In this document: positions 5,870-24,457 of the stretch, piece by piece
Numbering within the stretch: position 1 is the first letter of the stretch
How the letters are laid out: each line of letters starts with the position of its first letter
Assembly (NCBI RefSeq): GCF_900187275.1
Contig: NZ_LT906458.1
Location: forward strand, 1,650,001-1,682,000
Length of the DNA: 32,000 nucleotides
From: Pasteurella multocida
GTDB taxonomy: Bacteria > Pseudomonadota > Gammaproteobacteria > Enterobacterales > Pasteurellaceae
Direction of reading: 5' to 3'
Notes under the pieces: generated by a model
Told to the model about the DNA's origin: nothing
What the model saw: the letters and a program-made list of their open reading frames with translations, nothing else
Databases searched by the model: none
Program-made: the position numbers and the translations under genes

Positions 5870-5945
<76 letters not shown>

Positions 5946-5974
5946 TTCATTCTCGGCAAGTGTTCATTTAACGC

Positions 5975-6059
5975 GGAGGGATTCCCGAGCGGCCAAAGGG
6001 AGCAGACTGTAAATCTGCCGGCTCAGCCTTCGAAGGTTCGAATCCTTCTCCCTCCACCA
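5975..6059 (+). tRNA. tyrU: tRNA-Tyr (anticodon GTA)
   Basis: 85 nt with a long variable arm and anticodon loop ctGTAaa. It is nearly identical in layout to E. coli tRNA-Tyr, with encoded CCA. Confidence 0.95.
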
Positions 6060-6105
6060 TTTTTTAAATGAAACTAGTTCTGATGGGTCAGATGAATTTA
6101 GGACT

Positions 6106-6180
<75 letters not shown>

Positions 6181-6183
6181 AAC

Positions 6184-6259
6184 GCTGATATAGCTCAGTT
6201 GGTAGAGCGCACCCTTGGTAAGGGTGAGGTCGGCGGTTCAAATCCGCCTATCAGCACCA
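6184..6259 (+). tRNA. thrT: tRNA-Thr (anticodon GGT)
   Basis: 76 nt with anticodon loop ttGGTaa and encoded CCA. It starts 3 nt after tRNA-Gly. Confidence 0.95.
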
Positions 6260-6331
6260 GTCCTAGTATTTCCTTTCTGTCCTGTCCTTAATTAACAGCA
6301 AATTTGAATTTTGGTTAATGTGGTATATTGA

Positions 6332-7552
<1,221 letters not shown>

Positions 7553-7600: not shown

Positions 7601-7674
7601 GTTTATCAAACACTTAACTTAAAAAGTAAAGAGATAAAAAGGCAAGGTTGATCCTCACCTTTTCACATAGCTGA

Positions 7675-9015
7675 TTATTTGGTTAAACGTTGATTAAGCA
7701 ACCACATAATCGCTTCAGGACTGTTAAACACCGCATCCCACGTGTTATGTGGATTGTTATTCACAATGCCATTATCTCCGGCTTGTTGCATCGTAAATTC
7801 AGTATATTTCACCTTGTCTGACTTCACTTCATCTTTCAAAATCGCATAATTGATGCGCGAACCTGCAACCGGCGAAACCTTATCTTCGATACTGTGGAAA
7901 AACCAAATTGGGGTATTTTTCAATGCCGATAAATGTTGTACGGACGCATTACCCTCTATCCATTCAAGCGTATTAGCCTCACGTCCACTCATTAATAACG
8001 CTCCCGCAAAAAAGTGCGGTCGTTTTTGTAATAAATATAATCCCCCTTCTGCCCCACGCGAGAGCCCAATAACATAGATCCGCTGTGTATCAATATTTGG
8101 GTGGCTAGCAATCACATCATCTAACAGCTTGAAAAGGAGTTGGTGACGATTGTCGGTTTGCCAATGGATACCGGTCTTATCGAAAGCATCAAAAACCGCA
8201 TCGTACTGAGGTGCCAAAACAAAACCGTCCTCATAAAGTAATGTGGCAATCGCACCTTTACTAGATAATAAATGTGCTAAATTATCTTTTCCTACCTGTC
8301 CAGAACCATGTAAAAATAAGGTTAATGGGTATTTTTTCCCGCTATCGACCGCGGGTTGATAAAAACGATATAAAAGTTGATTATCTTGCTGTGTATGCCA
8401 AACCCGATGCGCTGAGAAGTGATCTAGATAAGCGATGTTGATCTTTTCTTGCACTGCCGGTTGCTTAATTTCACTCGGCATCAGGGTTGTGCCATTGGTC
8501 AACTTTAACAAACCGGTTTGTTTAATACTGTATATTAATTTGTCACCATAAAACTCCGGCACACGATTTGCCTGCACCTTTTCGACTTCAATCATTTGCC
8601 CCGTTTTATCTTTTGCCTTAAATTTCATTGCCTGATTATTTTCCACTTTCAAAGCATAAAAATCGGCATTTTTATCACGTTCATCGAGTTCAAGGATCAC
8701 AAATTTTCCTGCTTGTGGGCGATGTGTTCGACTTGGTTGATTATTAACATAAGCCTTCAAGAGTGTTCTTGGTTCACTCGTGGTTTGCTCAAGTGCGGTC
8801 TGAATTTGATAAAGTTGACGTAGATCGGTGCCCGCCAAAATATTCGCCTCATATTCCAATGCAATCCCTGTAATCTTCGCCCCTTTTTCAGTGACATCAG
8901 CCAATAATGTTGCTTGGATCGCTTGTGGTGGCTTTGCTACATCTGGTATTTGTGTCGTTGCCATACTGACGAATGGAAAACTGACACAAGCTAAGATCAA
9001 AATTTGTCTTAACAT
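7675..9015 (-). CDS. Secreted two-domain alpha/beta hydrolase (esterase/peptidase-like); substrate unknown
   Basis: 446 aa. The N-terminal signal peptide is MLRQILILACVSFPFVSMA. An uncharacterised region of about 200 aa follows. The C-terminal alpha/beta-hydrolase fold has LFLHGSGQVGKDN (oxyanion region), nucleophile elbow GLSRG, and later SIEDKV and PHNTW as candidate Asp and His. RBS AGGGAGAG lies 5 nt before the ATG. Confidence 0.7.
   Translation of the reverse strand: MLRQILILACVSFPFVSMATTQIPDVAKPPQAIQATLLADVTEKGAKITGIALEYEANILAGTDLRQLYQIQTALEQTTSEPRTLLKAYVNNQPSRTHRPQAGKFVILELDERDKNADFYALKVENNQAMKFKAKDKTGQMIEVEKVQANRVPEFYGDKLIYSIKQTGLLKLTNGTTLMPSEIKQPAVQEKINIAYLDHFSAHRVWHTQQDNQLLYRFYQPAVDSGKKYPLTLFLHGSGQVGKDNLAHLLSSKGAIATLLYEDGFVLAPQYDAVFDAFDKTGIHWQTDNRHQLLFKLLDDVIASHPNIDTQRIYVIGLSRGAEGGLYLLQKRPHFFAGALLMSGREANTLEWIEGNASVQHLSALKNTPIWFFHSIEDKVSPVAGSRINYAILKDEVKSDKVKYTEFTMQQAGDNGIVNNNPHNTWDAVFNSPEAIMWLLNQRLTK
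8012..8020 (+). repeat. Uptake signal sequence
   Basis: Exact AAGTGCGGT. Confidence 0.8.
8791..8799 (+). repeat. Uptake signal sequence
   Basis: Exact AAGTGCGGT. Confidence 0.8.
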
Positions 9016-9028
9016 AATTTCTCTCCCT

Positions 9029-9066
9029 AAAAAAATAGCAACAAGCCCTCCTCGCCTTGTTGCTAT
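9029..9066 (-). terminator. Rho-independent terminator after gntP
   Basis: 11-bp perfect stem atagcaacaag (9035-9045) / cttgttgctat (9056-9066) with a 10-nt loop. On the minus strand a T7 run follows (plus-strand a9029-a9035). The T-run abuts the esterase RBS. Confidence 0.7.
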
Positions 9067-9079
9067 CTTTGTTTAACCC

Positions 9080-10546
9080 TTAGAGTTTTTTACTCTGTAA
9101 ATTGACATAAAGCAGAATTCCCGCCAACACACCGAGCGGTAACACCAAGTCTGTAATCGAACCATCATTGCCCCAAACTAAGTTCGCCAAAATCACTGAG
9201 CTACCACCAATTGCCCATGCGATTGTCGTTGGTACAGACCAAACAATCATTTGTTTCTTCACATCATTAATGCCCATCATGCGGTTCACGACCCAGAACA
9301 AGCTGTCATTAAAATAACCGAAGAACAAGGAGCCCATAGTCGCAGCCTGTGCCGCGAGTAACATATTCACCCCCGGAATCTGTGCTAGAATTGGCGCAGA
9401 AATCGAAGCCGCAGTGATCATAGCTACCGTACCTGAGCCCTGAATAAAGCGTACTAATGTTGAAACAATAAACGGAATCAAGATAGGTGAAATAGGTAAG
9501 GCAGCAACTTGTTCTGCCAATTCTTTACCCGCTCCACTATCACGTAATACCGCACCGAGCGCACCACCAGCACCCGTTACTAATAAAATAATGCCCGCCG
9601 TTTTTACCCCTTCTTCTAAATGCAGTGCTGTCGTGGTTTTATCGGCTTTAGGCAATAATGTGTACACAGCGACTAACACACTGATTGCAAGAGCAATCAT
9701 CGGATGACCAATAAAGTTAAACACTTGGTATAGGGTGTTTTGTGCAAGTTCAGGAGTGTTTTTAGCCAGTAAACCTAAAATGGCTTTAATGAAAATAAGC
9801 GCAATCGGTAAAACAATCGGTAATAATGATAAACCTAAACTTGGTAAGTTTTTCTTCTCACGGCTTTCAATATAATCATCATACTTTTGTTTTAATTCTT
9901 CTTGACTAAACACTTCCTGATTAAAGGTTGGATACTTTTTGTCTAACCATTTAGCATACAGCACCATCCCAACTACAGGTAAAACGGCCAACGACATCCC
10001 GACTAATAACATTGCCCCAATATCAACATTAAATAAGCCGGCTACACCTAATGGACCGGGTGTTGGAGGAACAGTATGGTGCGTAACAACTAAGCCACCT
10101 GCTAATGCTACCCCTAAAGTCAATAAAGAACGTTTCCCATTTTTAGCTAACGCTTTTGCTACTGGATACAAAATCACAAAGGCTGAATCCACAAAGATTG
10201 GAATACTCACAATATAGCCAGTAATAGCCAATGCCCATTCTTCCTTCTTCTTGCCTAAAAACTTAATAAAGCTATAAGCCATTTTCTCTGCGGCACCCGA
10301 AACCTCAAGGATACTTCCCATCATGACACCGAGTCCAATTACAATACCAATCCCCCCTAACGTGCCTCCAAAGCCTTTGGTAATTGCACCCAGTGTTTGG
10401 TCAACATTCATCCCACCAATAAGCCCTGCTATCGCTGCCGCAATTAACATGGCAATAAAAGCATGAACGCGCGTTCTTAACACTAAAAAGACGAGCACAA
10501 AAACGGCCACTAATAAGCCGATTATTGGAATAGGTAATCCAAACAT
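9080..10546 (-). CDS. GntP-family acid-sugar permease (probable tetronate transporter)
   Basis: 488-aa polytopic protein with a typical gluconate:H+ symporter-family sequence. A GGGAGG RBS precedes it, and the start is 11 nt after the denD stop. Confidence 0.85.
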   Translation of the reverse strand: MFGLPIPIIGLLVAVFVLVFLVLRTRVHAFIAMLIAAAIAGLIGGMNVDQTLGAITKGFGGTLGGIGIVIGLGVMMGSILEVSGAAEKMAYSFIKFLGKKKEEWALAITGYIVSIPIFVDSAFVILYPVAKALAKNGKRSLLTLGVALAGGLVVTHHTVPPTPGPLGVAGLFNVDIGAMLLVGMSLAVLPVVGMVLYAKWLDKKYPTFNQEVFSQEELKQKYDDYIESREKKNLPSLGLSLLPIVLPIALIFIKAILGLLAKNTPELAQNTLYQVFNFIGHPMIALAISVLVAVYTLLPKADKTTTALHLEEGVKTAGIILLVTGAGGALGAVLRDSGAGKELAEQVAALPISPILIPFIVSTLVRFIQGSGTVAMITAASISAPILAQIPGVNMLLAAQAATMGSLFFGYFNDSLFWVVNRMMGINDVKKQMIVWSVPTTIAWAIGGSSVILANLVWGNDGSITDLVLPLGVLAGILLYVNLQSKKL

Positions 10547-10557
10547 AACGCCTCCCG

Positions 10558-11505
10558 TTACATATCATATTGAATGAATTGTTGAATCACATCCGCAAAA
10601 CGTTGATCGGCATGGAAACCTAAACCAAGTGCGTGTGAACAGTTAATTGCCGCAGGCCAACTGGCAACAATATTGTTAATCCCTTCGTCAAATGCCACAT
10701 TGACATACTGTAAAATTGCATCCCCTTTTACCTTAGCTAACTCAGACAACATGTTTTCCACAGTCACAGTAAAGCCAGGTAAATTGATGACATGCCAATC
10801 TCTTGCAGGAAGAGAAGGTAGCTGAAGTGCGTGAATAAAATTATTCACGACTGTATTTGGACTTGATAGCCATAATTTTAATTGCACAGACACCGGGCAA
10901 ATCGCCATTTCGTTATGCAACGGCTCACGAATAATACTGCTCACAAATGAAGAAGCGGCTTTATTCGGTTTACCCGGACGAATACAAATGGTCGGCAAGC
11001 GAAGCACGATGCCGTCCACAAACCCTTTGCGGCTATAATCATTAATCAATAATTCACACATGGCTTTTTGTGTACCATAGGTGGATTGTGGTGTGACGGC
11101 AGTATGATCCTCAATAACGTCAGGTAGCTTTCCTCCATAGACAGCTAATGAGCTGGTAAAAATAAAACGAATCTTTGGATTACGACGGCGGCAGCATTCG
11201 AGTAAATGACGCGTCGCTAAGAAATTAATCTCATAGCCTAAATCAGGATCTTGTTCCGCATGGCTACTGACAATCGCCGCTAAATGGAAAATAGCGTCTG
11301 TCTGCTGATCAATAATCTCATCCAATCCTTCTGGCTGGCGTAAGTCCATTTCTATACAACGTACTCTGGGATCATAATTGGGTGCGATAGGCTTAATCAC
11401 ATCAATTAAAATCAGCTCATCGACTTGTACATGTGGATGGGATAACAAGGTTTTTGCTAAACGCTGTCCAAGGAATCCTTGCCCGCCCGTAATGATAATT
11501 TTCAT
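10558..11505 (-). CDS. denD: NAD-dependent epimerase/dehydratase-family dehydrogenase; probable D-erythronate 2-dehydrogenase
   Basis: 315 aa with the extended-SDR N-terminus MKIIITGGQGFLGQRL. Its position in an ltnD/otnK/otnC/otnI cluster matches the characterised DenD context. A GAGGAG RBS precedes it. Confidence 0.75.
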   Translation of the reverse strand: MKIIITGGQGFLGQRLAKTLLSHPHVQVDELILIDVIKPIAPNYDPRVRCIEMDLRQPEGLDEIIDQQTDAIFHLAAIVSSHAEQDPDLGYEINFLATRHLLECCRRRNPKIRFIFTSSLAVYGGKLPDVIEDHTAVTPQSTYGTQKAMCELLINDYSRKGFVDGIVLRLPTICIRPGKPNKAASSFVSSIIREPLHNEMAICPVSVQLKLWLSSPNTVVNNFIHALQLPSLPARDWHVINLPGFTVTVENMLSELAKVKGDAILQYVNVAFDEGINNIVASWPAAINCSHALGLGFHADQRFADVIQQFIQYDM

Positions 11506-11525
11506 CTTTTTCTCCTCAAAAATTC

Positions 11526-11534
11526 ACCGCACTT
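11526..11534 (-). repeat. Uptake signal sequence
   Basis: Exact ACCGCACTT in the denD leader. Confidence 0.8.
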
Positions 11535-11573
11535 TTGTTCACATTTCATGCAGTTTAAGGGTTATTATGTAAG

Positions 11574-11604
11574 AAATGCCCTACCCACTGACAACAGGGC
11601 ATTT
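11574..11604 (-). terminator. Intra-operon hairpin (possible partial terminator or attenuator) between the membrane hydrolase gene and denD
   Basis: 9-bp stem aaatgccct (11574-11582) / agggcattt (11596-11604) with a 13-nt loop. On the minus strand the sequence after it is tttctt. The large loop and weak T-run lower confidence. Confidence 0.4.
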
Positions 11605-11643
11605 TTCGAATGAATAACAACACGACTGTGACGAAATAAAGGT

Positions 11644-13443
11644 TTAGGCTAAGAATCGCCCAATGACTTGACCTCCGACTAACACCCAAGTCATTAACAG
11701 AGAGGTGAAAAATACCCCTAAATAAATATAGCCTGTTTTTAAATAGCACCAGTGATTGATCACGGTGAAGACAATAAACTGTGGAATAATAACGGCTAAC
11801 ATCATCATCCAACGTCCACCAAATTGTGGCAGTCCCACCACATCAAATCCCGGACCGATTTGCATAAAACCAGGAACAAAATGGAATAACCATAAAATAA
11901 TTAAACCACCAGTAGCAAAAAGTGCGGTTTTGAAACTCCAGATCAACAATGTTGCTGTAAACGAACTCGCCACTTTTTGTTTCATTTGGACTGACACGAT
12001 CAAACCGTTGAACACGAAGAAAAAGACCAAAATAGGTAACCAATACACGATAAATAAATTAAACCGCTCTACCGTTAATGGCTTCAATAATGGCCATAAG
12101 AAACGTAACTCAACATGGAAATATTGATAAATCAGACTGACAAGGAAATATAAACCGGCAAATAACAATAAGCTGAGTAATAAATAACGTCCAATCAGTT
12201 GCGCCGTTGTCAAGGAAGCAGATTGGCTCAACACACCAAACTCTGCCCAACAAAACTGTGCTTTTCTTTGCCACAAGCCAAATAAAAGACTACCGACAAG
12301 CCCACTCACAACGAGCCATAAAATAATGCCATTTCCCATTTCAAGTGGCATAAAACTCAATTTCGCGGCAATCGGTTCATTCGCACCGCCCCACTGGGTA
12401 AATAGCGGATAGAGCAGTAATGTCAGCACAATATTAATCAGCGTAAAGCCCCACCATTGTTTGCTCGAAATTGCTGTCTTTTCTGTGACGGCTTGATTCA
12501 TCACGCCAAAATAGGTCGTTTTTAAAAGTCCGCTGGCAAAACATAATGTGGCAAGCAAAGCACAAGCTAAAGCAAATAACCCTGTAAGTTCTTTATACCA
12601 ATAGGTTTGTTGGTCAGGATCAATCCAATCCGCACCTTTTTCGCCATGTTGCAATGCTTGATTAAACCAAAGAATGGCTTCTTTATTACTCTGGGAAGCA
12701 ATCATCACCCCAAGATGGGTACCATCGACCATTGCCGCACGACGTGCAGAACCGGTGTTAAAGTCACCATAGGTATGATCCCACTGCAAAGTTTCATTTT
12801 CGCCTAACCCAAATGCTTTCAGGCGGTTAGGATGATGAATCAAACTTTTTACAGGGAAGGTTCTTTCACGATAGCCACCGATTTCTTCGTACAATCCTTG
12901 TGTCAATAAGTAGTTATTCAATGTCATCTCACCACCATTGCTACTTAATCCATTGACAGCTTTGTGATCTGGATTGAGTTTTGCCACGCGAATTGCATTT
13001 AACGCGCCAGTAGAGTGACCAAAGAGACCTAACCGTGTGTTATCTACAAACGGCAACGTTTTTAAATATTGATAACCATTATTCGCTCCACTCATATTTT
13101 TATTTGAAGCGGGTAACTTAGTAGAATAGCCATGTCCAAAATGATCGATCGCTAGCACCACAAAACCGCGCTTAGCCAGCTCCAACGCACCAAATGTACT
13201 GGTTGCTTCTTTATCACTTTGATAGCCATGCAATGCCAAAAGTCCTGGCTTCGGTGTGTCTGCCGTAGCAGAAACTGGACGATATAGCTTCGCGGCCATC
13301 GGTTGCATTTCTTCTGTCATAAAGCTCACATGGCTCACCTCAATTCGACCAAAATCGCGATCTATTGCCGAAGCAAGATAGGCACCTAAAAACGTGAACA
13401 AAAGAAACACACTTCCCCAAAAATAAGGTTTACTTGAATGCAT
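11644..13443 (-). CDS. Membrane protein: N-terminal anchor, alpha/beta serine hydrolase domain and C-terminal 8-TM module (599 aa); function unknown
   Basis: The start was moved to the ATG at 13443 (MHSSKPYFWG...), preceded by GAGGAGAG and lying 1 nt after the cyclase-family stop codon. TM0 is FWGSVFLLFTFLGAYLASA. The hydrolase motifs are LLALHGYQSDKE (HG oxyanion) and GLFGHSTGA (GxSxG; Ser codon at 13012-13014). About eight hydrophobic helices run from about residue 285 to the C-terminus. Confidence 0.7.
   Translation of the reverse strand: MHSSKPYFWGSVFLLFTFLGAYLASAIDRDFGRIEVSHVSFMTEEMQPMAAKLYRPVSATADTPKPGLLALHGYQSDKEATSTFGALELAKRGFVVLAIDHFGHGYSTKLPASNKNMSGANNGYQYLKTLPFVDNTRLGLFGHSTGALNAIRVAKLNPDHKAVNGLSSNGGEMTLNNYLLTQGLYEEIGGYRERTFPVKSLIHHPNRLKAFGLGENETLQWDHTYGDFNTGSARRAAMVDGTHLGVMIASQSNKEAILWFNQALQHGEKGADWIDPDQQTYWYKELTGLFALACALLATLCFASGLLKTTYFGVMNQAVTEKTAISSKQWWGFTLINIVLTLLLYPLFTQWGGANEPIAAKLSFMPLEMGNGIILWLVVSGLVGSLLFGLWQRKAQFCWAEFGVLSQSASLTTAQLIGRYLLLSLLLFAGLYFLVSLIYQYFHVELRFLWPLLKPLTVERFNLFIVYWLPILVFFFVFNGLIVSVQMKQKVASSFTATLLIWSFKTALFATGGLIILWLFHFVPGFMQIGPGFDVVGLPQFGGRWMMMLAVIIPQFIVFTVINHWCYLKTGYIYLGVFFTSLLMTWVLVGGQVIGRFLA
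11920..11928 (+). repeat. Uptake signal sequence
   Basis: Exact AAGTGCGGT inside the membrane hydrolase gene. Confidence 0.8.
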
Positions 13444-13444
13444 C

Positions 13445-14119
13445 TTATCTCTCCTCTGCAAGCACAGTCACTTGTGCGCTATCAATTCCTTTGACTAATA
13501 AAGGCATCGCTAATACCCGCATTAACGTTTCACTGTTCACTTGAGATAATTTCATATCTTCAATAATGCAAATAAAGGCTGGCTTATACATCCCAAGCAT
13601 CACTTGATGTGCTTCCACACCATGTTCGGGATTTGCCGGCGATGCCAAGGAAATAAAATCAAAACCAATCGCTTTTAAATGACTCGCATGATCAATCAAA
13701 TATTTCGCTGCTTGGATACTGACAGCGCCGCCATTTGCAGCATATTGTTGCGGGTCGGTTTGGCGTAACTGCTCTAACCCCGTACGAATGAAAAGAGAGT
13801 CCGCTTGTTGCATTTGTGTCAAATAAGGCGCCAGATCTTCAGGTTCAATTAATGTACCGGGTGCTTTGGGAATATCAACTAACAACGGTTTTTCATAAAT
13901 AAATGTACTCAATGGCAGTTCTGAAATAGATAAGCCATTTGGATTGAAATGTTTTGGCGCATCAAAATGTGTACCAAAATGATTAAATAAATGAATAATG
14001 GCACTGTTATAAACATCCCCTTCGGCAATGCTCGTGCTACTTTCGAAAGTCAGTGTCGGCTCCCCGGGAAACCCGGGATCCTTGATATCTAACGGATAAG
14101 ACAGTAATTGATAATTCAT
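13445..14119 (-). CDS. Cyclase-family protein (kynurenine formamidase / isatin hydrolase-like metal-dependent hydrolase)
   Basis: 224 aa with the family signature HxGTHxDxPxH, present as HFGTHFDAPKH. An AGGAG RBS lies 7 nt before the ATG, and the gap after the otnI stop is 15 nt. Confidence 0.75.
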   Translation of the reverse strand: MNYQLLSYPLDIKDPGFPGEPTLTFESSTSIAEGDVYNSAIIHLFNHFGTHFDAPKHFNPNGLSISELPLSTFIYEKPLLVDIPKAPGTLIEPEDLAPYLTQMQQADSLFIRTGLEQLRQTDPQQYAANGGAVSIQAAKYLIDHASHLKAIGFDFISLASPANPEHGVEAHQVMLGMYKPAFICIIEDMKLSQVNSETLMRVLAMPLLVKGIDSAQVTVLAEER

Positions 14120-14134
14120 CTTAGCGCTCCTGAC

Positions 14135-14917
14135 TTACGCGTCTTTATAAGGCGCAAACCAATCTAATCCGACGACAGTTTCGATTTTTGGCTTATATTC
14201 ACAGCCAATAAAGCCGCGATAGCCCATTTGATCTAACTTATCAAATAAATAAGTGTAGTTAATTTCTCCTTCATTCGGCTCATGACGATCTGGTACCGAG
14301 GCAATTTGAATATGTGCCACTTTGTCTTTCAACAAATCTGTCAGCTGTGACAACTTGCCATCGACATTTTGGGCATGAAAATAATCAAGCTGGATAAAGA
14401 CATTATCCCGATCAACTAAATTCACAATGTCTAATGTATCAAATTGACTTTTTAGCAAATAATTTGGTTTCACCTGTGGACTTAAGGCTTCGAGTAGAAT
14501 CTTAATACCATGCGGTTTGAATTTTTCTGCCGCGTAACGAAGATTCTGCACAAAGGTACGTTTATACAGCTCGCGATCCGCACCTTCTGGTACAACCGCT
14601 GCCATAATATGAACACTCGGGCAATCGAGTGCTAGCGCATATTCCAAGGCTAAATCAATATCACGATGACTGTCTTGTTCGCGTCCCGGAATCGCTGACA
14701 CGCCCCACTCCCCTTGTTCAATATTTCCCGCAGCCGTATTAAATAACACTTGCTTCAGCCCATATTGCACCAATTTTTCTTTTAACACTGAGGCGGGATA
14801 GTCATAAGGCCATAAATATTCCACATATTTAAAGCCCGCTTTCGACGCCGCTTCAAAACGATCTAAAAAAGGCACTTCAGTAAACATCATGGTTAAATTT
14901 GCAGCAAATTTTGGCAT
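14135..14917 (-). CDS. otnI: 2-oxo-tetronate isomerase (hydroxypyruvate isomerase family)
   Basis: 260 aa, collinear with E. coli Hyi-type TIM-barrel proteins ([23 protein letters not shown]). The start is 1 nt after the otnC stop. Confidence 0.85.
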
Positions 14918-14918
14918 A

Positions 14919-15551
14919 CTATTTTCCCCTCTTTTCGAGATCTTTCACTTCGTCATCGGTCAGATAACGAACTTGTTGGCCTTTTAAGAGGAAATACAAT
15001 TTTGCGGTTTCCTCTAATTCTTCGGTATTGTCCACGGCATCAACCAAATCGGTTCCCGTTACAACCACACCGTGATTGGCCAATAAAAACGCTTTGCTCA
15101 GTAATGCGCGCTCACTCAGTTCACGCGCAATATTCGTATCACCGGGGCGATAATAAGGAATCACCGGAAGCTTGCCGACACGCATCACATAGTAGGGTGT
15201 GAATGCTTTCATCGCATTATCTGGATTGAGCCCCTCTAAACACGAAAGGGCAGTGAGATAAGTTGAATGTAAATGAACAATGGCATGACATGCCGGATTT
15301 TTGTGATACATCGCCAAATGAAAGACAGACTCCTTAGAGGGCTTCTTACCCGATAACAAGTTGCCTTCCATATCCAATACAGAGAGACTGTCCGCCTCTA
15401 AACGCCCCAAAGAAGAGCCCGTTGGCGTGACTAAAATACGTTTCTCATCTAAACGTACAGACAAATTTCCTGCGCCCCCCACACTATAGCCTCGTTCAAA
15501 TAATGAGCGCGCAAGATTCACCATTTCTTTTTTTTGTTCGAGTTCTGTCAT
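14919..15551 (-). CDS. otnC: 3-oxo-tetronate 4-phosphate decarboxylase (class II aldolase/adducin family)
   Basis: 210 aa with a class II aldolase fold sequence ([12 protein letters not shown]). Its ATGA start/stop overlap with otnK indicates translational coupling. Confidence 0.85.
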
Positions 15552-16789
15552 ATCAACATTCCTTGTGCGAAAGCAAAAAAGTCTTCTGTCCCGAAATTCC
15601 CTGATTTCAAAGCAAGATAAATATCTTCATCTAATGCTTTTAACCAAGGCACTCCGGGAGCAATTTGTTTACCGATTTGGAAGCCTGTAAAACCAAGTTG
15701 CTGAACCACAATGCTTGACGTTTCTCCACCCGCAGTAATGAAGTTCACTACCCCAGCGGCTTTCAGTTTTTGCGCGAGCTGTGCAAATGTGTTTTCGATC
15801 GCTTGGCTAGCTTTTTCCACACCAAATTCCGCTTGAATTTGTTTGAGCTTATCGGGTGATACCGTGGCATACACCATAGGCGCCAAATCGTGATCTAAAT
15901 GAGCAATAACCCATTTTGCTAGCACATCGGCATACGCAGGATTTGATAGGCTTTGTTCAACATCCAAATAAAAGTGCGGTGCTTTTTCTGCATATTTCGC
16001 CACTTGTTTATTGGTCATCACAGAACAAGACCCTGACAGCACCACCGTTTTACCTTTTGGTGGCAATAACGCATTGTCGCCATGCTGACCACCACTAGCA
16101 CGCGCCGCCATATAAGCAGCTAATCCCGATCCACCCGTCACCAATTTCAAGTCTGTAATGGCTTCTGCCAAAACAGCTAATTGATCATTATCGACAGAAT
16201 CCACGACTGCATAACGGAAGCCTTGTTGTTGTAAAGTACGAAAACACGATTTCACATAGTCACTGCCTTTCAACAGATCCGCATAGCACACAAGTCCTGT
16301 TTTCCCGAGCGCTTGTTGATCCATCAAGCGCACTAAATTGGCATCTTTCATCGGCGTAATCGGGTGATTTTGCATACCGGATTCATTCAATAGCACCTCA
16401 CCAACAAACAGATAACCATTAAAAATAGTGCGACCATTAACCGGTAAAGCTGGGCAAATAATCGTGAAATCCGCGTTTAACGCATCCAATAATGCATCCG
16501 TCACAGGACCAATATTGCCTTTTGCTGTACTATCAAAGGTGGAACAATATTTAAAATAGAACTGAGTACAGCCCTGTTGTTGTAACCAATGTAGTGCTTG
16601 TAAAGATTGAGCGATGGCTTCATCAACGGGATTAGAACGTGACTTTAAACTGATCACAATCGCATCCACAGGCGCTGTCAACGACTGCTTAGGCACCCCA
16701 TTCATCTGTACGGTAGCAAGCCCATTTTCCACTAGAAAACTGGCAATATCACTCGCACCAGTAAAATCATCTGCAATGACACCTAACAT
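15548..16789 (-). CDS. otnK: 3-oxo-tetronate kinase (DUF1537 four-carbon acid sugar kinase)
   Basis: 413 aa with N-terminus MLGVIADDFTGASD, typical of the DUF1537 kinase family. The start was moved to the ATG at 16789, 7 nt after AAGGAG. The track start is a GTG two codons upstream. Confidence 0.88.
   Translation of the reverse strand: MLGVIADDFTGASDIASFLVENGLATVQMNGVPKQSLTAPVDAIVISLKSRSNPVDEAIAQSLQALHWLQQQGCTQFYFKYCSTFDSTAKGNIGPVTDALLDALNADFTIICPALPVNGRTIFNGYLFVGEVLLNESGMQNHPITPMKDANLVRLMDQQALGKTGLVCYADLLKGSDYVKSCFRTLQQQGFRYAVVDSVDNDQLAVLAEAITDLKLVTGGSGLAAYMAARASGGQHGDNALLPPKGKTVVLSGSCSVMTNKQVAKYAEKAPHFYLDVEQSLSNPAYADVLAKWVIAHLDHDLAPMVYATVSPDKLKQIQAEFGVEKASQAIENTFAQLAQKLKAAGVVNFITAGGETSSIVVQQLGFTGFQIGKQIAPGVPWLKALDEDIYLALKSGNFGTEDFFAFAQGMLI
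15972..15980 (+). repeat. Uptake signal sequence
   Basis: Exact AAGTGCGGT inside otnK. Confidence 0.8.
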
Positions 16790-16791
16790 AA

Positions 16792-17697
16792 TCACGCTCC
16801 TTTTTTCTGTGGTAATTCAATGCCACTAAAAATCTTAATCACCGCACTATCATCTTCTTTGCCATACCCCGCATTGCTGGCTGACGTAAACATATTAAAC
16901 GCCGTGCTTGCTAGCGGTAACGGGAACTTCAAAGATTTTGCAGTATCCGTGACAAGACCTAAATCTTTCACAAAAATATCTACCATAGACAGTGGGGTAT
17001 AGTCGCCCTCTACAACGTGCTTCATACGATTTTCAAACATCCAAGAATTCCCTGCAGCATGAGTCACCACGTCATACATTAAATCGAGTGGAATACCAGC
17101 TCTAGCTGCTAATGCCATGGCTTCTGCACCCGCGGCAATATGTACCCCCGCGAGTAATTGGTGAATAATTTTCACGGTTGCCCCTAAGCCAATTTCTTCA
17201 CCGATGTTATACACTTTACCCGCCACCGCATCTAAGACTGGTTGCAATTTCGTAAAAGCTTGTTGAGAACCAGATGCCATCACGGTCATCTCGCCTGCCG
17301 CCGCTTTTGCTGCCCCTCCAGAAACAGGCGCATCTAACATCACCAACCCTAGCTCTGTTAATTTTTGTGAAATCTGCTGCGCATCTTGTGCAGAAATGGT
17401 AGAAGAGACCATCACCGCAGTACCTGGTTTTAAATGACTTGCCAAGCCTTTCTCGCCAAATAGCACTGTATTCACTTGGCTAGCATTGACAACTAACAAC
17501 AACACCGCATCTAATTCTTGTGCAAAATCCACCGCGCTTTGTGATACGCCTTTTGCTCCCTCGGCTTTAAGTTTCTCCAAGGCAAGCGGGTTCAGATCTG
17601 CACCGTAAGTTGTTAATCCTGCTCGAATACAAGATTGCGCGGCGCCCATTCCCATTGCACCTAAGCCAATCACGGCGACTGAAATATTTTGATTCAT
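16792..17697 (-). CDS. ltnD: L-threonate dehydrogenase (beta-hydroxyacid dehydrogenase family)
   Basis: 301 aa with the Rossmann motif VAVIGLGAMGMG and a 3-hydroxyisobutyrate dehydrogenase-like sequence. The start was moved to the ATG at 17697 (MNQNIS...), 4 nt after GGAGGA. Confidence 0.82.
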   Translation of the reverse strand: MNQNISVAVIGLGAMGMGAAQSCIRAGLTTYGADLNPLALEKLKAEGAKGVSQSAVDFAQELDAVLLLVVNASQVNTVLFGEKGLASHLKPGTAVMVSSTISAQDAQQISQKLTELGLVMLDAPVSGGAAKAAAGEMTVMASGSQQAFTKLQPVLDAVAGKVYNIGEEIGLGATVKIIHQLLAGVHIAAGAEAMALAARAGIPLDLMYDVVTHAAGNSWMFENRMKHVVEGDYTPLSMVDIFVKDLGLVTDTAKSLKFPLPLASTAFNMFTSASNAGYGKEDDSAVIKIFSGIELPQKKGA

Positions 17698-17781
17698 AAG
17701 TTCCTCCACTCAGATTTTAACGGGTGTTCGACTAACACTATATTGCCTCCTTTTATAAAATAAATCTGCGATCGAGATCTC

Positions 17782-17911: not shown

Positions 17912-18673
17912 ATGTTAATCCCCGCAGAACGTCAAAAGAAAATCCTTAATTTAATTCATCAACAAGGTATTGTCCGCATTACGAATCTGGTCGAATTAAT
18001 GGGTGTTTCCCACATGACCATTCGTCGCGATATTCAAAAATTGGAAGAAAAGGGCAAAGTCGTTTCTGTTTCGGGGGGAGTACAGCTATTAGAAAGGTTA
18101 ATTTCCGAGCCTACTCGCGATGATAAATCGCTGTTATTTCATCAACAAAAATCAGCGATTGGTTTAGTCGCCGCAAATCTGATTCCTGCCAATGCAACGA
18201 TCTATTTAGATGCAGGCACCACCACTTTAGAAATCGCCAAACAGATTACAGATCGTGATGACTTATTGGTAATCACCAATGATTTTGGCATTGTGGATTA
18301 CTTAATTAGCAATGGACGTTGTGACTTAATTCATACTGGGGGGCGAGTGTGTAAAGAAAATCGTTCTTCTGTGGGGGAATTATCTGCCCAATTTTTGCGG
18401 AACATTTCTATTGATATCGCCTTTATTTCGACTTCCTCATGGAATTTACAAGGATTGACGACACCAGATGAAAATAAATTACCGGTTAAACGTGCCATTG
18501 TACAAGCTAGCAGACGGAATATCCTTGTCACAGACTCCTCAAAATACGGCAAAGTCGCGACGTTTTTACTCTATGCTCTGGATACATTAGATCAAATTAT
18601 TTGCGATAAAGCTTTGCTCATCAACGCGCAAGAAAAGATTAAAGAAATGGATATTGAACTTTTGTTAGTGTAA
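17912..18673 (+). CDS. DeoR-family transcriptional regulator of the tetronate operon
   Basis: 253 aa with an N-terminal wHTH (ITNLVELMGVSHMTIRRDIQKLEEKG) and a C-terminal DeoR sugar-phosphate sensor domain. It is divergent from ltnD, and a TATAAT lies at 17873-17878. Confidence 0.88.
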   Translation: MLIPAERQKKILNLIHQQGIVRITNLVELMGVSHMTIRRDIQKLEEKGKVVSVSGGVQLLERLISEPTRDDKSLLFHQQKSAIGLVAANLIPANATIYLDAGTTTLEIAKQITDRDDLLVITNDFGIVDYLISNGRCDLIHTGGRVCKENRSSVGELSAQFLRNISIDIAFISTSSWNLQGLTTPDENKLPVKRAIVQASRRNILVTDSSKYGKVATFLLYALDTLDQIICDKALLINAQEKIKEMDIELLLV

Positions 18674-20885: not shown

Positions 20886-22070
20886 TTATCTTTCAAAATA
20901 AACTTTTTTGAGAGCTAACTCCAATCCTCTAAATTCTGCTAAACCTTTTAGCCGACCAATTGCTGAATAACCTGGATTTGTTTTTTTATTCAAATCATCA
21001 AGCATTTGATGACCATGATCAGGACGCATTGGAATTAAACGACCATTTCCATTAGCTTTTCGTCTGTATTCTTCCGTTAAGAGAGCTTTGACAACATTAA
21101 ACATATCCACATCGCCTTCTAAATGTGCCGCTTCGTGAAAACTCAGTGGATTTTCTTCACGACAAGTAGAACGTAAATGTGCAAAGTAAATACGATCAGA
21201 GAATTGTTCCGTCATTTTCACTAAGTCATTATCTGAACGAACTCCATAAGATCCCGTACACATTGTAAAACCATTCGCCGCTAATGGTTGAGTTTTGACA
21301 AACCACTGCATATCCTCAATTGTCGAAACAATACGTGGGAGACCTAAAATTGGACGAGGAGGATCATCAGGATGAATTGCCATTTTAATCCCCACTTCCT
21401 CTGCAACAGGAATAATCTCATTTAAGAAATACGCCAAATGCGTACGAAATTTCTCTGGCGTGATATTTTGATAACGATCTAGCTGCCCTTGAAATTCACT
21501 TAAAGTATAACCTTCTTCCGCGCCAGGCAAGCCCGCAATAATATTATTCGTCAATTGTTGAATATCCTGCTTACTCATTTTTTCAAAATAGGTTTTTGCT
21601 TGCGAGCACTCTTCAGCAGAATAACTTTGCTCTGCATTTGGGCGTTTTAAAATATATAATTCAAAGGCAGCAAAGGCGATATGGTCGAATCGTAAAGCTT
21701 TTGAACCATCTGGCATTTGGTATGCCAAATCTGTCCGAGTCCAATCTAATACAGGCATAAAATTATAACACACCGTATCAATACCACATTTGGCAAGATG
21801 ACGTAGCGTCTGTTTATAATTTTCGATCCATTGTTGATATTGCCCTGTTTGTGTTTTAATTTCTTCATGAACAGGCACACTCTCCACGACTGACCAAACC
21901 AAACCAGCTTTTTCAATATCTGCTTTACGCTTCTCAATCTCTTCCACTGACCAAATTTGCCCATTTGGAATATGGTGAAGCGCAGTAACGATTCCTGTTG
22001 CACCTGCTTGACGAATGTCTGCTAATGAAACCGGATCTTGGGGGCCATACCAACGCCATGTTTGTTCCAT
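20886..22070 (-). CDS. uxuA: Mannonate dehydratase
   Basis: 394 aa, collinear with E. coli UxuA from [10 protein letters not shown] to the C-terminus. The start was moved to the ATG at 22070, preceded by GGAGA. Confidence 0.96.
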
Positions 22071-22527
22071 AAAATTCTCCATTTAAGATTATTTGGCCTG
22101 TAAATAATGTTCACTCATCCATCGACATTGATACTTTTCTTTCGCTACCTTTTTAGGGAGAGTTTACTTTTATCAGTTTTTCTAACTATTTTATTGATTA
22201 TGATTTATAAGATTTATTGATGATATATTCTGGGTACATTTCATATTAATACAATAATCCTTAAATTATTCTTAACAGAGTTATATATGATGTAATATGA
22301 AAATAGCTAATTACTTTCCAGAGGCTTATATATCCATTAAATGGAAATCTTAATAACTTAATTGGTACTGTGTCACTTAAACACATCCTATTTAAGTTCA
22401 TCATAAATAAAACAATCAATATTAGTTATTGAAAAAGCAGTAACGATAAATTCATTATTTACTAGACCGTACTAGATTAACGTAGTAAATATTATTCTTT
22501 TGTAAAACGTTCTTTGATGATTTAAGT

Positions 22528-23274
22528 TCATATTCCAACAACAACAGGATTCCGATTAAATAAATAACCATCAAAATCAGGATCATCAAGATCAGATAAT
22601 TCAAATAATTTCTGTTTTACATTTTCAAGATGCTGCCACATGGCTTTTTTAGCAAGCGCAGGATCTTTTCGTTGGATACTATTGAGAATTGCCTCATGAT
22701 CTTTTAACCATAAGCGACGATAATGATGCACTTTAATATGCGAATGAAGCCCTTTCCACATTGGATTCGAACGATATTTCCATAGATCTTTTTGCATCTG
22801 AATTAAAACTTCATTCTGCGTTATTTCAGCAATCGCAGTATGAAATTCTTCATCTTCAGAATAATCATCATTACCACCTTGCTCTAACGTAACATATTCA
22901 CGCTTTAAAATTTCTTTCAATCGTACAATATCATTACGGTTCGCTTGAATTGCTGCAAATTCGGCAATACTGCTTTCTAATAATTGTCGAGCTTGCAACA
23001 ATTCAAATGGTCCTACATCTAAATAATCAAAACTATCATTACTGCTTGGTAAATTAATGATATAGACACCAGAACCCTTTCTAACAGAAATTAAGTTTTC
23101 TAGCTCCAACATAATTAATGCTTCTCTAACGACAGTACGGCTGACATCAAAACGTTCTGCAATATCACGTTCTGGAGGTAATCGCTCGCCAATTGTATAG
23201 ATTCCTTTGCGGAGCTCATCTTTCAATAATTCACCAATTTTCTTATAAGATCGTAATGAATAGTTTTCACTCAT
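22528..23274 (-). CDS. GntR/FadR-family regulator, UxuR/ExuR-like (hexuronate regulon repressor)
   Basis: 248 aa with an N-terminal GntR wHTH (LPPERDIAERFDVSRTVVREAL) and a FadR-type C-terminal domain. It sits within a hexuronate gene block. Confidence 0.85.
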   Translation of the reverse strand: MSENYSLRSYKKIGELLKDELRKGIYTIGERLPPERDIAERFDVSRTVVREALIMLELENLISVRKGSGVYIINLPSSNDSFDYLDVGPFELLQARQLLESSIAEFAAIQANRNDIVRLKEILKREYVTLEQGGNDDYSEDEEFHTAIAEITQNEVLIQMQKDLWKYRSNPMWKGLHSHIKVHHYRRLWLKDHEAILNSIQRKDPALAKKAMWQHLENVKQKLFELSDLDDPDFDGYLFNRNPVVVGI

Positions 23275-23321
23275 AATTAAAAAGCCTCAAATATTCCAAC
23301 AATAACAGTACCAATCTAAAT

Positions 23322-23340
23322 ATTGGTATAACAAATTATA
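23322..23340 (-). promoter_or_regulatory. Regulator promoter -10 element abutting a UxuR/ExuR-type operator (autoregulation)
   Basis: On the minus strand, TATAAT (23340-23335) is followed directly by ttgttataccaat. On the plus strand this reads ATTGGTATAACAAA at 23322-23335, matching 12 of 14 positions of ATTGGTATACCAAT. Confidence 0.45.
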
Positions 23341-23356
23341 ATTTAATATAACATAC

Positions 23357-24326: not shown

Positions 24327-24373
24327 CTTCATCCCCTTTATCATTAAATTCACATCAGACCAAAAAATAATAT

Positions 24374-24385
24374 TTGGCACACCAA
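24374..24385. promoter_or_regulatory. Second UxuR/ExuR-type operator core in the dctP leader
   Basis: TTGG-caca-CCAA, about 45 nt upstream of the dctP ATG. It has the same TTGG-N4-CCAA geometry as the perfect palindrome at 24458-24473. Confidence 0.35.
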
Positions 24386-24446: not shown

Positions 24447-24457
24447 AAAAAACACAA

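What the first reader, a model, noticed from the sequence alone, without database searches (positions are those of the whole stretch)
7675..17709. Tetronate (L-threonate/D-erythronate) operon with three hydrolase genes: a candidate front-end for conjugated or lactonised C4 acid sugars
Seen in the sequence: ltnD, otnK, otnC and otnI are packed with 1-4 nt gaps or overlaps. After a 15-nt gap with its own AGGAG comes a cyclase-family hydrolase. One nt after its stop comes a 599-aa membrane alpha/beta hydrolase. Only after that come a hairpin, denD, gntP, a terminator and a secreted alpha/beta esterase.

Established knowledge: the DUF1537 kinase pathway described by Zhang et al. (2016) runs LtnD/DenD, then OtnI, OtnK and OtnC, converting free L-threonate or D-erythronate to DHAP plus CO2. 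No step needs a hydrolase. From memory, the characterised H. influenzae Rd cluster (HI1010-HI1015) has denD directly after otnI. That recollection must be verified.

Inference: three predicted hydrolases in three compartments (secreted, membrane-tethered and outward-facing, cytoplasmic) wrapped around a complete tetronate pathway and its permease suggest the real nutrient is not the free acid. It may be an ester or lactone, for example threono- or erythrono-1,4-lactone, or oxalyl-L-threonate esters from ascorbate breakdown on host surfaces. I know of no described pathway of this kind.
Basis: partly seen in the sequence, partly recalled or inferred. Interest (0 to 1): 0.75.

Follow-up and report, generated by a model that had tools for sequence, protein, structure and literature searches.

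The report
Tetronate operon with conserved hydrolase front-end
A Pasteurella multocida operon for burning four-carbon sugar acids carries three extra hydrolase genes, one of them the kmt1 gene used worldwide to identify this pathogen. Related bacteria from several phyla keep the same hydrolases beside the same kind of kinase, which points to an undescribed step that frees these acids from esters or lactones.

Summary
The window is Pasteurella multocida. On the minus strand lie ltnD-otnK-otnC-otnI, a cyclase-family hydrolase, a 599-aa membrane alpha/beta hydrolase, a hairpin, denD-gntP, a terminator and a signal-peptide esterase.

New findings:
1. The 599-aa gene is kmt1, the species-PCR target. 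Its function is unknown.
2. 35 of 37 loci holding a Kmt1 homologue of at least 44% identity carry a DUF1537 kinase within 10 kb. None of 43 loci with more distant homologues do.
3. The link recurs with different gene orders, and with a DUF1537 subfamily only 24% identical to OtnK, in Treponema, Actinomyces/Schaalia and Anaerotruncus-type contigs.
4. In Actinomyces the cyclase is replaced by an SMP30/gluconolactonase-family protein. In Cardiobacterium the esterase is replaced by an unrelated secreted hydrolase.
5. Kmt1 is an outward-facing, cutinase-like esterase on an 8-helix membrane domain with no Pfam family or structural relative.
6. E. coli, H. influenzae Rd/Eagan and Seminibacterium have the core operon without hydrolases.

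The best reading is an accessory front-end that releases L-threonate from esters or lactones, plausibly oxidised vitamin C products. The substrate is untested.

The parts
17912..18673 (+). Divergent DeoR-family regulator, YgbI-like
   Evidence: DeoRC plus HTH_DeoR. NF040890 YgbI scores 363.5 bits, below its 400 cut-off. The same divergent position is seen in E. coli and in the Pasteurellaceae loci whose upstream flank was retrieved (21 of 25).
16792..17697 (-). ltnD, L-threonate dehydrogenase
   Evidence: NF043037 equivalog, 486 bits against 350. ATG at 17697 preceded by GGAGGA.
15548..16789 (-). otnK, 3-oxo-tetronate kinase (DUF1537)
   Evidence: NF043035, 617 bits against 350. SBD_N plus NBD_C.
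14919..15551 (-). [quoted passage not shown]
   Evidence: NF043034, 303 bits against 250.
14135..14917 (-). otnI, 2-oxo-tetronate isomerase
   Evidence: NF043033, 386 bits against 325.
13445..14119 (-). Cyclase-family metal-dependent hydrolase, cytoplasmic; proposed tetronolactone hydrolase
   Evidence: PF04199, 73 bits. Not a kynurenine formamidase equivalog: TIGR03035 scores 61 against 223. H47, H51, D53, H57, H171 and E187 are invariant in 10 orthologues and align to KynB 4cob. No signal peptide. In Actinomyces its slot is filled by an SMP30/gluconolactonase protein.
11644..13443 (-). kmt1: membrane-anchored ecto-esterase (residues 29-280) fused to an 8-helix membrane domain (281-591)
   Evidence: AF2 pLDDT 95, pTM 0.93. 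HG oxyanion motif, GHS144TG, E187 and H243 are invariant in 61 homologues. The catalytic domain is cutinase/PETase-like. Topology by the positive-inside rule. A UniRef homologue is named Kmt1.
11954..12410 (.). KMT1T7/KMT1SP6 diagnostic PCR amplicon (457 bp) inside the membrane domain of kmt1
   Evidence: Exact primer matches. Both primers occur together in 65 papers. A 460-bp product is reported in PMC12882374.
11574..11604 (-). Hairpin between kmt1 and denD, with no U-tract
   Evidence: 12-bp stem in the minimum-free-energy fold. The whole intergenic region has z -0.9.
10558..11505 (-). denD, D-erythronate dehydrogenase
   Evidence: NF043036, 477 bits against 325.
9080..10546 (-). GntP-family permease
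   Evidence: PF02447, 492 bits. TIGR00791, 325 against 293.
9031..9070 (-). Intrinsic terminator between gntP and est
   Evidence: -21.3 kcal/mol, z -6.1, followed by U7.
7675..9015 (-). est: signal-peptide esterase with an Ig-like N-domain plus alpha/beta hydrolase
   Evidence: EstA_Ig_like, 80 bits, plus Abhydrolase_2. T. maritima EstA 3doh, E 3.7e-28. Follows gntP in all 25 Pasteurellaceae loci with kmt1, and in G. parasuis and P. bettyae, which lack kmt1.
7634..7666 (-). Terminator after est
   Evidence: -16.1 kcal/mol, z -3.5.

Best explanation
The region is the P. multocida L-threonate/D-erythronate operon, extended by an accessory set of three hydrolases that prepare bound forms of C4 sugar acids for the pathway.

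Core pathway: LtnD or DenD, then OtnI, OtnK and OtnC, giving DHAP plus CO2. This is established biochemistry for these families (summarised in PMC12540250) and was not re-tested here.

Proposed front-end (inferred):
1. Outside the cytoplasm, the signal-peptide esterase Est and the membrane-anchored ecto-esterase Kmt1 remove acyl groups from esterified tetronates.
2. The free acid enters through GntP. A neutral lactone may enter through or alongside the 8-helix domain of Kmt1.
3. In the cytoplasm, the cyclase-family metal hydrolase opens the lactone ring. This yields L-threonate, or D-erythronate, for the dehydrogenases.

The most plausible natural substrates are products of dehydroascorbate oxidation by reactive oxygen species. 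These are 4-O- and 3-O-oxalyl-L-threonate, cyclic oxalyl-threonate and threonolactone-type species, which are expected on inflamed host mucosa.

Shown: gene content, conserved catalytic residues, predicted topology and the cross-phylum association with DUF1537 kinases.
Inferred: esterase and lactonase specificity, any transport role of the membrane domain, and the ascorbate origin of the substrate.
For: 1. Association.
- All 31 proteobacterial loci with Kmt1 at 59% identity or more hold it co-directionally in the otn cluster. They comprise 25 Pasteurellaceae, 3 Cardiobacterium, Lautropia, Dentiradicibacter and Propionivibrio. One of the 31 is cut by its contig end.
- 35 of 37 loci at 44% identity or more have a DUF1537 kinase within 10 kb, against 0 of 43 for homologues at 40% or less.

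2. Independence of the association.
- Treponema: DH-Kmt1-cyclase-kinase.
- Actinomyces/Schaalia and a metagenome contig: kinase-DH-SGL-Kmt1.
- Anaerotruncus-type contigs: DH-kinase-(23%-identical Kmt1 homologue, E 7e-25 over the full length)-cyclase.
- The kinases there are only 24% identical to OtnK, so this is not a block transfer.

3. Analogous displacement.
- The cyclase is replaced by an SMP30/gluconolactonase-family protein (PF08450, 143 bits, no signal peptide).
- Est is replaced in Cardiobacterium by an unrelated signal-peptide Abhydrolase_1 protein.

4. Enzymes appear intact.
- Kmt1: catalytic Ser, His and acid plus the HG motif are invariant.
- Cyclase: the binuclear-metal ligands are invariant.

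5. Outward-facing active site. K+R per homologue is 14.3 on the predicted inner loops against 8.1 on the outer loops. The outer loops are far better conserved than the inner loops, 0.55-0.70 against 0.33-0.42.

6. The hydrolases track LtnD, not DenD. Eight proteobacterial loci lack denD but keep ltnD with est, cyc and kmt1, except that the two Rhodocyclales-type loci among them keep only kmt1. All modules outside Proteobacteria have an LtnD-family dehydrogenase.

7. Chemistry. Dehydroascorbate plus H2O2 gives mainly oxalyl-threonate esters, with cyclic oxalyl-threonate as a further product. Esterases convert these to oxalate plus threonate (PMC6225978).

8. No separate transporter lies in the Actinomyces, Anaerotruncus-type or L034 Treponema modules.
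Against: - No substrate or activity was tested, and the specificity of all three hydrolases is unknown.
- The characterised activities of the cyclase family are amidase-type (kynurenine formamidase). No paper in the searched library links PF04199 to a lactonase.
- The core pathway works without hydrolases in E. coli and H. influenzae. Several Pasteurellaceae have lost cyc and kmt1, or carry a frameshifted kmt1, so the hydrolases are dispensable.
- In P. multocida est lies behind a strong terminator and may be transcribed separately.
- The modules outside Proteobacteria lack otnC and otnI and use an uncharacterised kinase subfamily, so their substrate may not be a tetronate.
- The most conserved parts of the membrane domain are its outer loops, which argues for a platform or substrate-binding role as much as for a channel.
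- One cyclase homologue at 49% identity (Paenibacillus) sits with other dehydrogenases and no DUF1537 kinase.
Confidence: 0.55

Rival explanations
1. Metabolite handling rather than nutrient capture. The cytoplasmic cyclase-type or SMP30-type enzyme reopens lactones that form spontaneously from pathway acids or oxo-intermediates. An example is 3-oxo-tetronate cyclising to a hydroxytetronic-acid-type lactone. Est and Kmt1 are then general scavenging esterases that merely share regulation.
For: Both putative lactonases are cytoplasmic. In P. multocida the cyclase sits directly after otnI with a 15-nt gap. The core pathway functions without hydrolases elsewhere.
Against: This does not explain why the lactonase is always adjacent to the extracytoplasmic Kmt1, across four phyla and two lactonase folds. 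It also does not explain why A. gerencseriae keeps the SGL-Kmt1 pair without a nearby kinase (L033).
Confidence: 0.15
2. The module acts on a different class of acid-sugar derivative, such as C5/C6 aldonolactones or their acyl esters. The link to tetronate genes would then reflect the promiscuity of these dehydrogenase, kinase and decarboxylase enzymes.
For: The DUF1537 kinases in Treponema, Actinomyces and Anaerotruncus-type modules belong to an unassigned subfamily: about 50 bits to DtnK and 24% identity to OtnK. The Treponema dehydrogenase scores 393 bits against a 397 cut-off for tartronate-semialdehyde reductase. Published work shows that a related pathway accepts C4-C6 acids (PMC12994016 abstract).
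Against: In 30 proteobacterial loci the partners are equivalog-level LtnD, OtnK, OtnC and OtnI homologues at 61-92% identity to the window proteins, which score above the NCBIfam equivalog cut-offs.
Confidence: 0.15
3. Amide reading. The cyclase-family enzyme is an amidohydrolase that releases threonate or oxalate from N-acyl adducts, such as ascorbate-derived amide glycation products. It would not be a lactonase.
For: The closest solved relatives are kynurenine formamidases. The known chemistry of the family is amide hydrolysis.
Against: The scores are far below the formamidase equivalog cut-off, 61 against 223. Replacement by an SMP30/gluconolactonase-family protein points to lactone chemistry.
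Confidence: 0.07
4. There is no functional link. The hydrolase genes are passengers kept by shared ancestry at the end of an operon.
For: They have been lost or broken in several Pasteurellaceae. Distant Kmt1 homologues stand in unrelated contexts.
Against: At least five different gene orders, two kinase subfamilies and four phyla are involved. The contrast is 35 of 37 against 0 of 43.
Confidence: 0.08

Closest known systems
L-threonate/D-erythronate catabolic cluster of E. coli (ygbI-ltnD-otnK-otnC-ygbM-ygbN) and H. influenzae (HI1010-HI1015), the DUF1537 kinase pathway (Zhang et al. 2016, as summarised in PMC12540250)
   Same: The same five enzymes at equivalog level, a GntP permease and a divergent DeoR regulator, with the same order for ltnD-otnK-otnC-otnI.
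   Different: The window and most Pasteurellaceae add three hydrolase genes (est, cyclase-family, kmt1) that are absent from the characterised clusters.
Aldonolactonase steps of oxidative sugar pathways (SMP30/gluconolactonase family; amidohydrolase-type lactonases such as L-fucono-1,5-lactonase)
   Same: A cytoplasmic ring-opening hydrolase placed upstream of a sugar-acid dehydrogenase or kinase. In Actinomyces the slot is filled by an SMP30-family protein.
   Different: Here the usual occupant has the cyclase/kynurenine-formamidase fold. No lactonase of that fold was found in the searched literature. There is also no aldose dehydrogenase in the cluster that would generate the lactone, so the lactone would have to come from outside.
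Plant apoplastic oxalyl-threonate esterase activity in ascorbate breakdown (Green and Fry 2005; Dewhirst and Fry 2018, PMC6225978)
   Same: The proposed chemistry is extracytoplasmic hydrolysis of cyclic oxalyl-threonate, then oxalyl-threonate, to oxalate plus L-threonate.
   Different: The source read here describes the plant esterases only as activities, and whether a gene is known was not checked. Nothing links them by sequence to Est or Kmt1. A bacterial counterpart has not been described.
Lidless cutinase/PETase/dienelactone-hydrolase-type alpha/beta hydrolases; T. maritima EstA (3DOH)
   Same: The Kmt1 ectodomain matches them by profile (E 1e-17 to 1e-5) and by fold (Foldseek E ~1e-7). 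Est matches EstA at E 3.7e-28.
   Different: Kmt1 has an N-terminal anchor and a C-terminal 8-helix domain with no Pfam family. That domain has no PDB match at E below 0.001; the best is Rce1 at TM-score 0.37-0.45. Only 169 clusters at 50% identity exist among 1.84 billion proteins, and most full-length members carry the same hydrolase fusion.

Membership tests
Four-step tetronate (L-threonate/D-erythronate) catabolic cluster | LtnD, OtnK, OtnC, OtnI and DenD orthologues | tested here: met
   All five score above NCBIfam equivalog cut-offs: 486/350, 617/350, 303/250, 386/325 and 477/325.
Four-step tetronate (L-threonate/D-erythronate) catabolic cluster | Clustered GntP-type permease and divergent DeoR (YgbI) repressor | tested here: inconclusive
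   GntP meets the subfamily cut-off, 325 against 293. The regulator scores 363.5, below the YgbI equivalog cut-off of 400, but occupies the same divergent position as in E. coli.
Four-step tetronate (L-threonate/D-erythronate) catabolic cluster | Growth on and induction by L-threonate or D-erythronate | not testable with these tools
   Needs culture experiments.
Cyclase family PF04199 / kynurenine formamidase | Pfam domain and the HxGTHxDxPxH...H...E metal ligands | tested here: met
   PF04199, 73.2 bits against 23.1. H47, H51, D53, H57, H171 and E187 are invariant.
Cyclase family PF04199 / kynurenine formamidase | Arylformamidase (KynB) equivalog score | tested here: not met
   TIGR03035, 60.7 bits against 223. 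Only 35 bits to solved KynB. No tryptophan-pathway genes nearby.
Sugar-acid lactonase (function) | Hydrolysis of a 1,4- or 1,5-lactone of a sugar acid | not testable with these tools
   Only indirect evidence: positional replacement by the SMP30/gluconolactonase family in 5 loci.
Alpha/beta-hydrolase serine esterases | Nucleophile elbow GxSxG, catalytic His and acid, oxyanion HG motif, alpha/beta fold | tested here: met
   Kmt1: HG72-73, GHS144TG, E187 and H243 are invariant in 61 sequences; AF2 fold plus Foldseek matches to cutinases and PETases. Est: the GLSRG motif can be read in the translated sequence, and it matches 3doh.
FrsA / PHB-depolymerase / named esterase equivalogs | Equivalog-level score | tested here: not met
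   Kmt1 against FrsA: 32 bits against 477. Est against type-1 scl-PHA depolymerase: 49.6 against 150.
Known membrane transporter or intramembrane enzyme folds (for the Kmt1 8-helix domain) | Significant sequence or structural similarity to a characterised family | tested here: not met

The most novel reading that the evidence does not exclude
Kmt1 founds a new class of ecto-esterase fused to a dedicated membrane conduit. Together with a cytoplasmic lactonase of either of two folds, it would form a 'hydrolyse outside, trap inside' uptake route for oxidised vitamin C products (oxalyl-threonate and threonolactone species). This route would feed a DUF1537-kinase pathway to DHAP. Host-associated bacteria of at least four phyla would then harvest the debris of the host's own antioxidant defence. 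In Treponema, Actinomyces and Anaerotruncus-type organisms the four-gene module would be a self-contained pathway.
Probability: 0.15. Interest if true: 0.85.

Novelty: new variant of a known kind. Interest (0 to 1): 0.66.

Why it matters
Three reasons:

1. kmt1 is amplified in a great many veterinary laboratories to identify P. multocida; both primers occur together in 65 papers of the searched library. No paper read here says more about its product than 'hydrolase family protein'. This analysis gives it a concrete genomic and biochemical context.

2. The characterised tetronate pathways start from free acids. Yet ROS oxidation of dehydroascorbate yields mainly oxalyl esters of threonate (PMC6225978). 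A conserved esterase and lactonase front-end would close that gap. It would also define how mucosal and oral bacteria use an abundant host-derived carbon source during inflammation.

3. The work flags an uncharacterised, rare membrane domain, and a possible first lactonase within the cyclase/kynurenine-formamidase fold. Both are directly testable with simple substrates.

Tried and rejected
- Zhang et al. 2016 (PMC4961189) is not held. The pathway steps were taken from PMC12540250 and the H. influenzae operon from PMC3938079.
- Literature searches for PF04199 plus lactonase, for bacterial oxalyl-threonate esterases and across all DUF1537/OtnK papers found no description of hydrolases in these clusters.
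- Papers on kmt1 say only 'hydrolase family protein'.
- My first neighbourhood script used out-of-frame ltnD and otnK queries. It was corrected.
- A forward primer recalled from memory for the P. multocida MLST 'est' locus does not match the window. I make no claim that the 446-aa esterase is the MLST est gene.
- The simple terminator scan missed the gntP-est terminator because its loop exceeds 8 nt. Folding recovered it.
- I considered recent horizontal insertion of cyc and kmt1. The GC content is flat, 0.41-0.42 against 0.42-0.45 in the neighbouring genes, and the genes are family-wide, so I rejected this.
- Rfam found nothing in the operon's intergenic regions.

Full report
**What is there**

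The window is Pasteurella multocida. The best database hits to the two 'extra' proteins are P. multocida proteins at 99-100% identity.

On the minus strand, from 17697 down to 7675, lie ltnD, otnK, otnC, otnI, a cyclase-family gene, a 599-aa membrane alpha/beta hydrolase, denD, gntP and a 446-aa esterase. A YgbI-like DeoR gene is divergent at 17912-18673.

- The five pathway enzymes all exceed NCBIfam equivalog cut-offs.
- A strong intrinsic terminator separates gntP from est (-21.3 kcal/mol, z -6.1, U7). A second terminator follows est.
- The element between the 599-aa gene and denD is a plain hairpin without a U-tract.
- GC content is flat across the operon, so nothing suggests a recent insertion.

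**The 599-aa gene is kmt1**

One homologue is named Kmt1 in UniRef. The classical KMT1T7 and KMT1SP6 primers match the gene exactly, at 12391-12410 and 11954-11973. They delimit 457 bp, the '460-bp' species-specific product (PMC12882374). Both primers occur together in 65 papers. The papers I could read say nothing about function beyond 'hydrolase family protein'.

**Anatomy of the three hydrolases**

*Kmt1*
- The AF2 model is very confident: pLDDT 95, pTM 0.93.
- It has an N-terminal helix (residues 5-28), an alpha/beta-hydrolase domain (29-280) and eight further helices (281-591).
- The HG oxyanion motif, the GHS144TG elbow, E187 and H243 are invariant in 61 homologues that reach down to 35% identity.
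- The catalytic domain resembles lidless cutinase, PETase and dienelactone-hydrolase-type esterases.
- Over the 61 homologues, the N-terminus and alternate loops carry 14.3 K+R per protein against 8.1 on the other face. This predicts an N-in topology with the catalytic domain outside.
- The outside loops are much better conserved than the inside loops, 0.55-0.70 against 0.33-0.42 majority fraction.
- The eight-helix domain has no Pfam or NCBIfam model.
- Modelled alone (pLDDT 85), it has no PDB match at E below 0.001.
- It is rare: 169 clusters at 50% identity among 1.84 billion proteins. Most of the full-length members carry it behind an N-terminal region of the same length as the hydrolase domain.

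*The cyclase-family protein*
- It keeps all binuclear-metal ligands: H47, H51, D53, H57, H171 and E187. These align with KynB.
- It scores far below the arylformamidase cut-off.
- It has no signal peptide.

*Est*
- It has a signal-like N-terminus.
- It has an Ig-like domain and an alpha/beta-hydrolase domain related to Thermotoga EstA.

A scan of one genome per species with a Kmt1 alignment returned 80 loci.

*Proteobacteria.* All 31 loci with Kmt1 at 59% identity or more have it co-directional with ltnD-otnK-otnC-otnI. They comprise 25 Pasteurellaceae, 3 Cardiobacterium, Lautropia, Dentiradicibacter and a Propionivibrio MAG. One of them is cut off by its contig end.
- The commonest order is ygbI<-ltnD-otnK-otnC-otnI-denD-gntP-est-cyc-kmt1.
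- Only P. multocida, P. oralis and P. canis have cyc-kmt1 between otnI and denD.
- All 25 Pasteurellaceae loci carry est and a cyclase-family gene. The cyclase is of one of two types, 65-87% or 38-40% identical to the window protein, and both keep the metal ligands.

*Beyond Proteobacteria.* The association recurs in new arrangements.

| Taxon | Gene order |
|---|---|
| Treponema | dehydrogenase-Kmt1-cyclase-DUF1537 kinase-RpiR |
| Actinomyces/Schaalia and a metagenome contig | GntR<-DUF1537 kinase-LtnD-like dehydrogenase-SMP30/gluconolactonase protein-Kmt1 |
| Anaerotruncus-type gut contigs (reached through the cyclase) | GntR<-dehydrogenase-DUF1537 kinase-703-aa protein-cyclase |

- The 703-aa protein is a full-length but only 23%-identical Kmt1 homologue (E 7e-25).
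- The kinases in these modules are only 24% identical to OtnK. A single block transfer therefore cannot explain the pattern.

*Totals.* 35 of 37 loci with Kmt1 at 44% identity or more hold a DUF1537 kinase within 10 kb. None of the 43 loci with more distant homologues do (Chloroflexi, Clostridia, Thorarchaeota and others). Three further distant homologues fetched separately gave two unrelated contexts and one kinase-DH-SGL-Kmt1 module, already counted in the table above.

**Two displacements sharpen the functional reading**

- Kmt1 is always adjacent to a cytoplasmic hydrolase. This is either the cyclase-family protein or, in all four Actinomyces/Schaalia loci and in contig L086, an SMP30/gluconolactonase-family protein without a signal peptide. 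A. gerencseriae keeps the pair even without a nearby kinase. Replacement of one fold by a family known for lactonases is the best available argument that the cyclase-family protein opens a lactone.
- In Cardiobacterium the slot of Est, after gntP, is filled by an unrelated Abhydrolase_1 protein with a clear signal peptide.

**The hydrolases are accessory**

- E. coli has ygbI-ltnD-otnK-otnC-ygbM-ygbN with no hydrolase. A match to the otnC-otnI query was found in 4581 of 5426 genomes; the gene order was read in one of them.
- H. influenzae HI1010-HI1015 is dehydrogenase through GntP only (PMC3938079).
- Seminibacterium has none.
- Glaesserella parasuis and P. bettyae keep only est.
- In Volucribacter est is truncated next to a Mu-like prophage.
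- A strain labelled H. influenzae has a cyclase and a frameshifted kmt1.
- Eight proteobacterial loci lack denD but keep ltnD; six of these also keep est, the cyclase and kmt1, and the two Rhodocyclales-type loci keep only kmt1. Every module outside Proteobacteria has an LtnD-family dehydrogenase. The hydrolases therefore track the L-threonate branch.

**How it most likely works**

Established knowledge: LtnD or DenD, then OtnI, OtnK and OtnC, convert free tetronates to DHAP and CO2. A three-step variant uses LtnD, 2-OtnK and 2-OtnC (PMC12540250).

Established chemistry: dehydroascorbate oxidised by H2O2 gives mainly 4-O- and 3-O-oxalyl-L-threonate, with cyclic oxalyl-threonate as a further product. 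Esterases convert these to oxalate and threonate (PMC6225978).

Inference:
1. Est in the periplasm, and Kmt1 at the outer face of the cytoplasmic membrane, de-esterify such compounds.
2. The free acid enters through GntP.
3. A neutral lactone enters with the help of the Kmt1 membrane domain. That domain is the only membrane protein in the Actinomyces, Anaerotruncus-type and one of the two Treponema modules.
4. The cytoplasmic metal hydrolase opens the lactone ring.

My confidence in each step:

| Claim | Confidence |
|---|---|
| Functional link of the hydrolases to the kinase pathway | about 0.8 |
| Lactonase role of the cyclase-family protein | about 0.5 |
| Ascorbate-derived substrates | about 0.25-0.3 |
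| Transport role of the membrane domain | about 0.2 |

**Comparison with what is known, and novelty**

The core is a textbook member of the DUF1537 tetronate cluster. The hydrolase set is not part of any characterised version. I found no paper describing it. Neither NCBIfam nor Pfam has specific models for these proteins, and the Kmt1 membrane domain has no known relative. I therefore rate the finding a new variant of a known kind. It comes with a clear set of experiments that could turn a diagnostic marker of unknown function into a defined enzyme.

Noticed in passing
window 14135-14917; L093 5447-6223: OtnI (2-oxo-tetronate isomerase, a xylose-isomerase-like TIM barrel) also hits NCBIfam NF007441, whose product name is 'HPr family phosphocarrier protein' (377 bits). 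E. coli ygbM carries that name in RefSeq. This looks like a propagated misnomer.
   Followed up: partly
window 23357-24413 (minus strand), junction near 23658-23674: The TRAP solute-binding gene dctP is split into two ORFs of 251 and 105 aa. Shifting the frame by one base near a T-run restores the sequence '...YLFSLDEHTMVPDVLV'. This is either a pseudogene or a sequencing error, in the hexuronate cluster (uxuA, uxuR, dctPQM, uxuB-like, uxaC, kdgK, eda).
   Followed up: partly
window 22001-30000: GC content falls to 0.31-0.37 across the uxuR-TRAP-uxaC-kdgK region, against about 0.41 elsewhere in the window.
   Followed up: no
window 5870-7552: Classical thrU-tyrU-glyT-thrT-tufB arrangement: four tRNA genes (Thr-TGT, Tyr-GTA, Gly-TCC, Thr-GGT) directly upstream of EF-Tu.
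   Followed up: yes
L090 14829-17078 (Pasteurella bettyae): Directly after ltnD-otnK-otnC-otnI-gntP-est lies a second DUF1537 kinase with a PdxA-family gene. From memory, this resembles the kinase plus PdxA2 route for D-threonate or D-erythronate. This species lacks cyc and kmt1.
   Followed up: no
L088 8963-10758; L087 (strain labelled H. influenzae, GCA_040978225.1): kmt1 is split into 512-aa and 89-aa ORFs. The stop-to-stop ORF layout is the same in two independent assemblies. The ORF between otnI and the cyclase is short and its identity is ambiguous: the stored Pfam hit says GntP, while my phmmer search says Est. This suggests decay of the hydrolase module in this lineage.
   Followed up: partly
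L091 13162-17389 (Volucribacter amazonae); L089 15633-16551 (Glaesserella parasuis): The 3' end of the operon, where cyc and kmt1 normally sit, is occupied by a Mu-like prophage in Volucribacter, leaving est truncated to 254 aa. In G. parasuis it is occupied by IS (Transposase_mut) copies.
   Followed up: no
L023 8205-9299 (Cardiobacterium valvarum): A signal-peptide Abhydrolase_1 protein (GNSMGG motif) sits between gntP and cyc-kmt1. It is unrelated to the EstA-type Est. This is a non-orthologous replacement of the periplasmic esterase.
   Followed up: partly
L083 5917-10330 (Paenibacillus spongiae): A 49%-identical cyclase homologue sits with a Zn-dependent alcohol dehydrogenase, a 2-hydroxyacid dehydrogenase, a GntR regulator and an ABC solute-binding protein. 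There is no DUF1537 kinase. This may be another sugar-acid or lactone pathway using the same hydrolase subfamily.
   Followed up: no
window 30320-30661 (+): A 113-aa ORF lies almost entirely inside proS on the opposite strand and has no family hit. It is most likely spurious.
   Followed up: no
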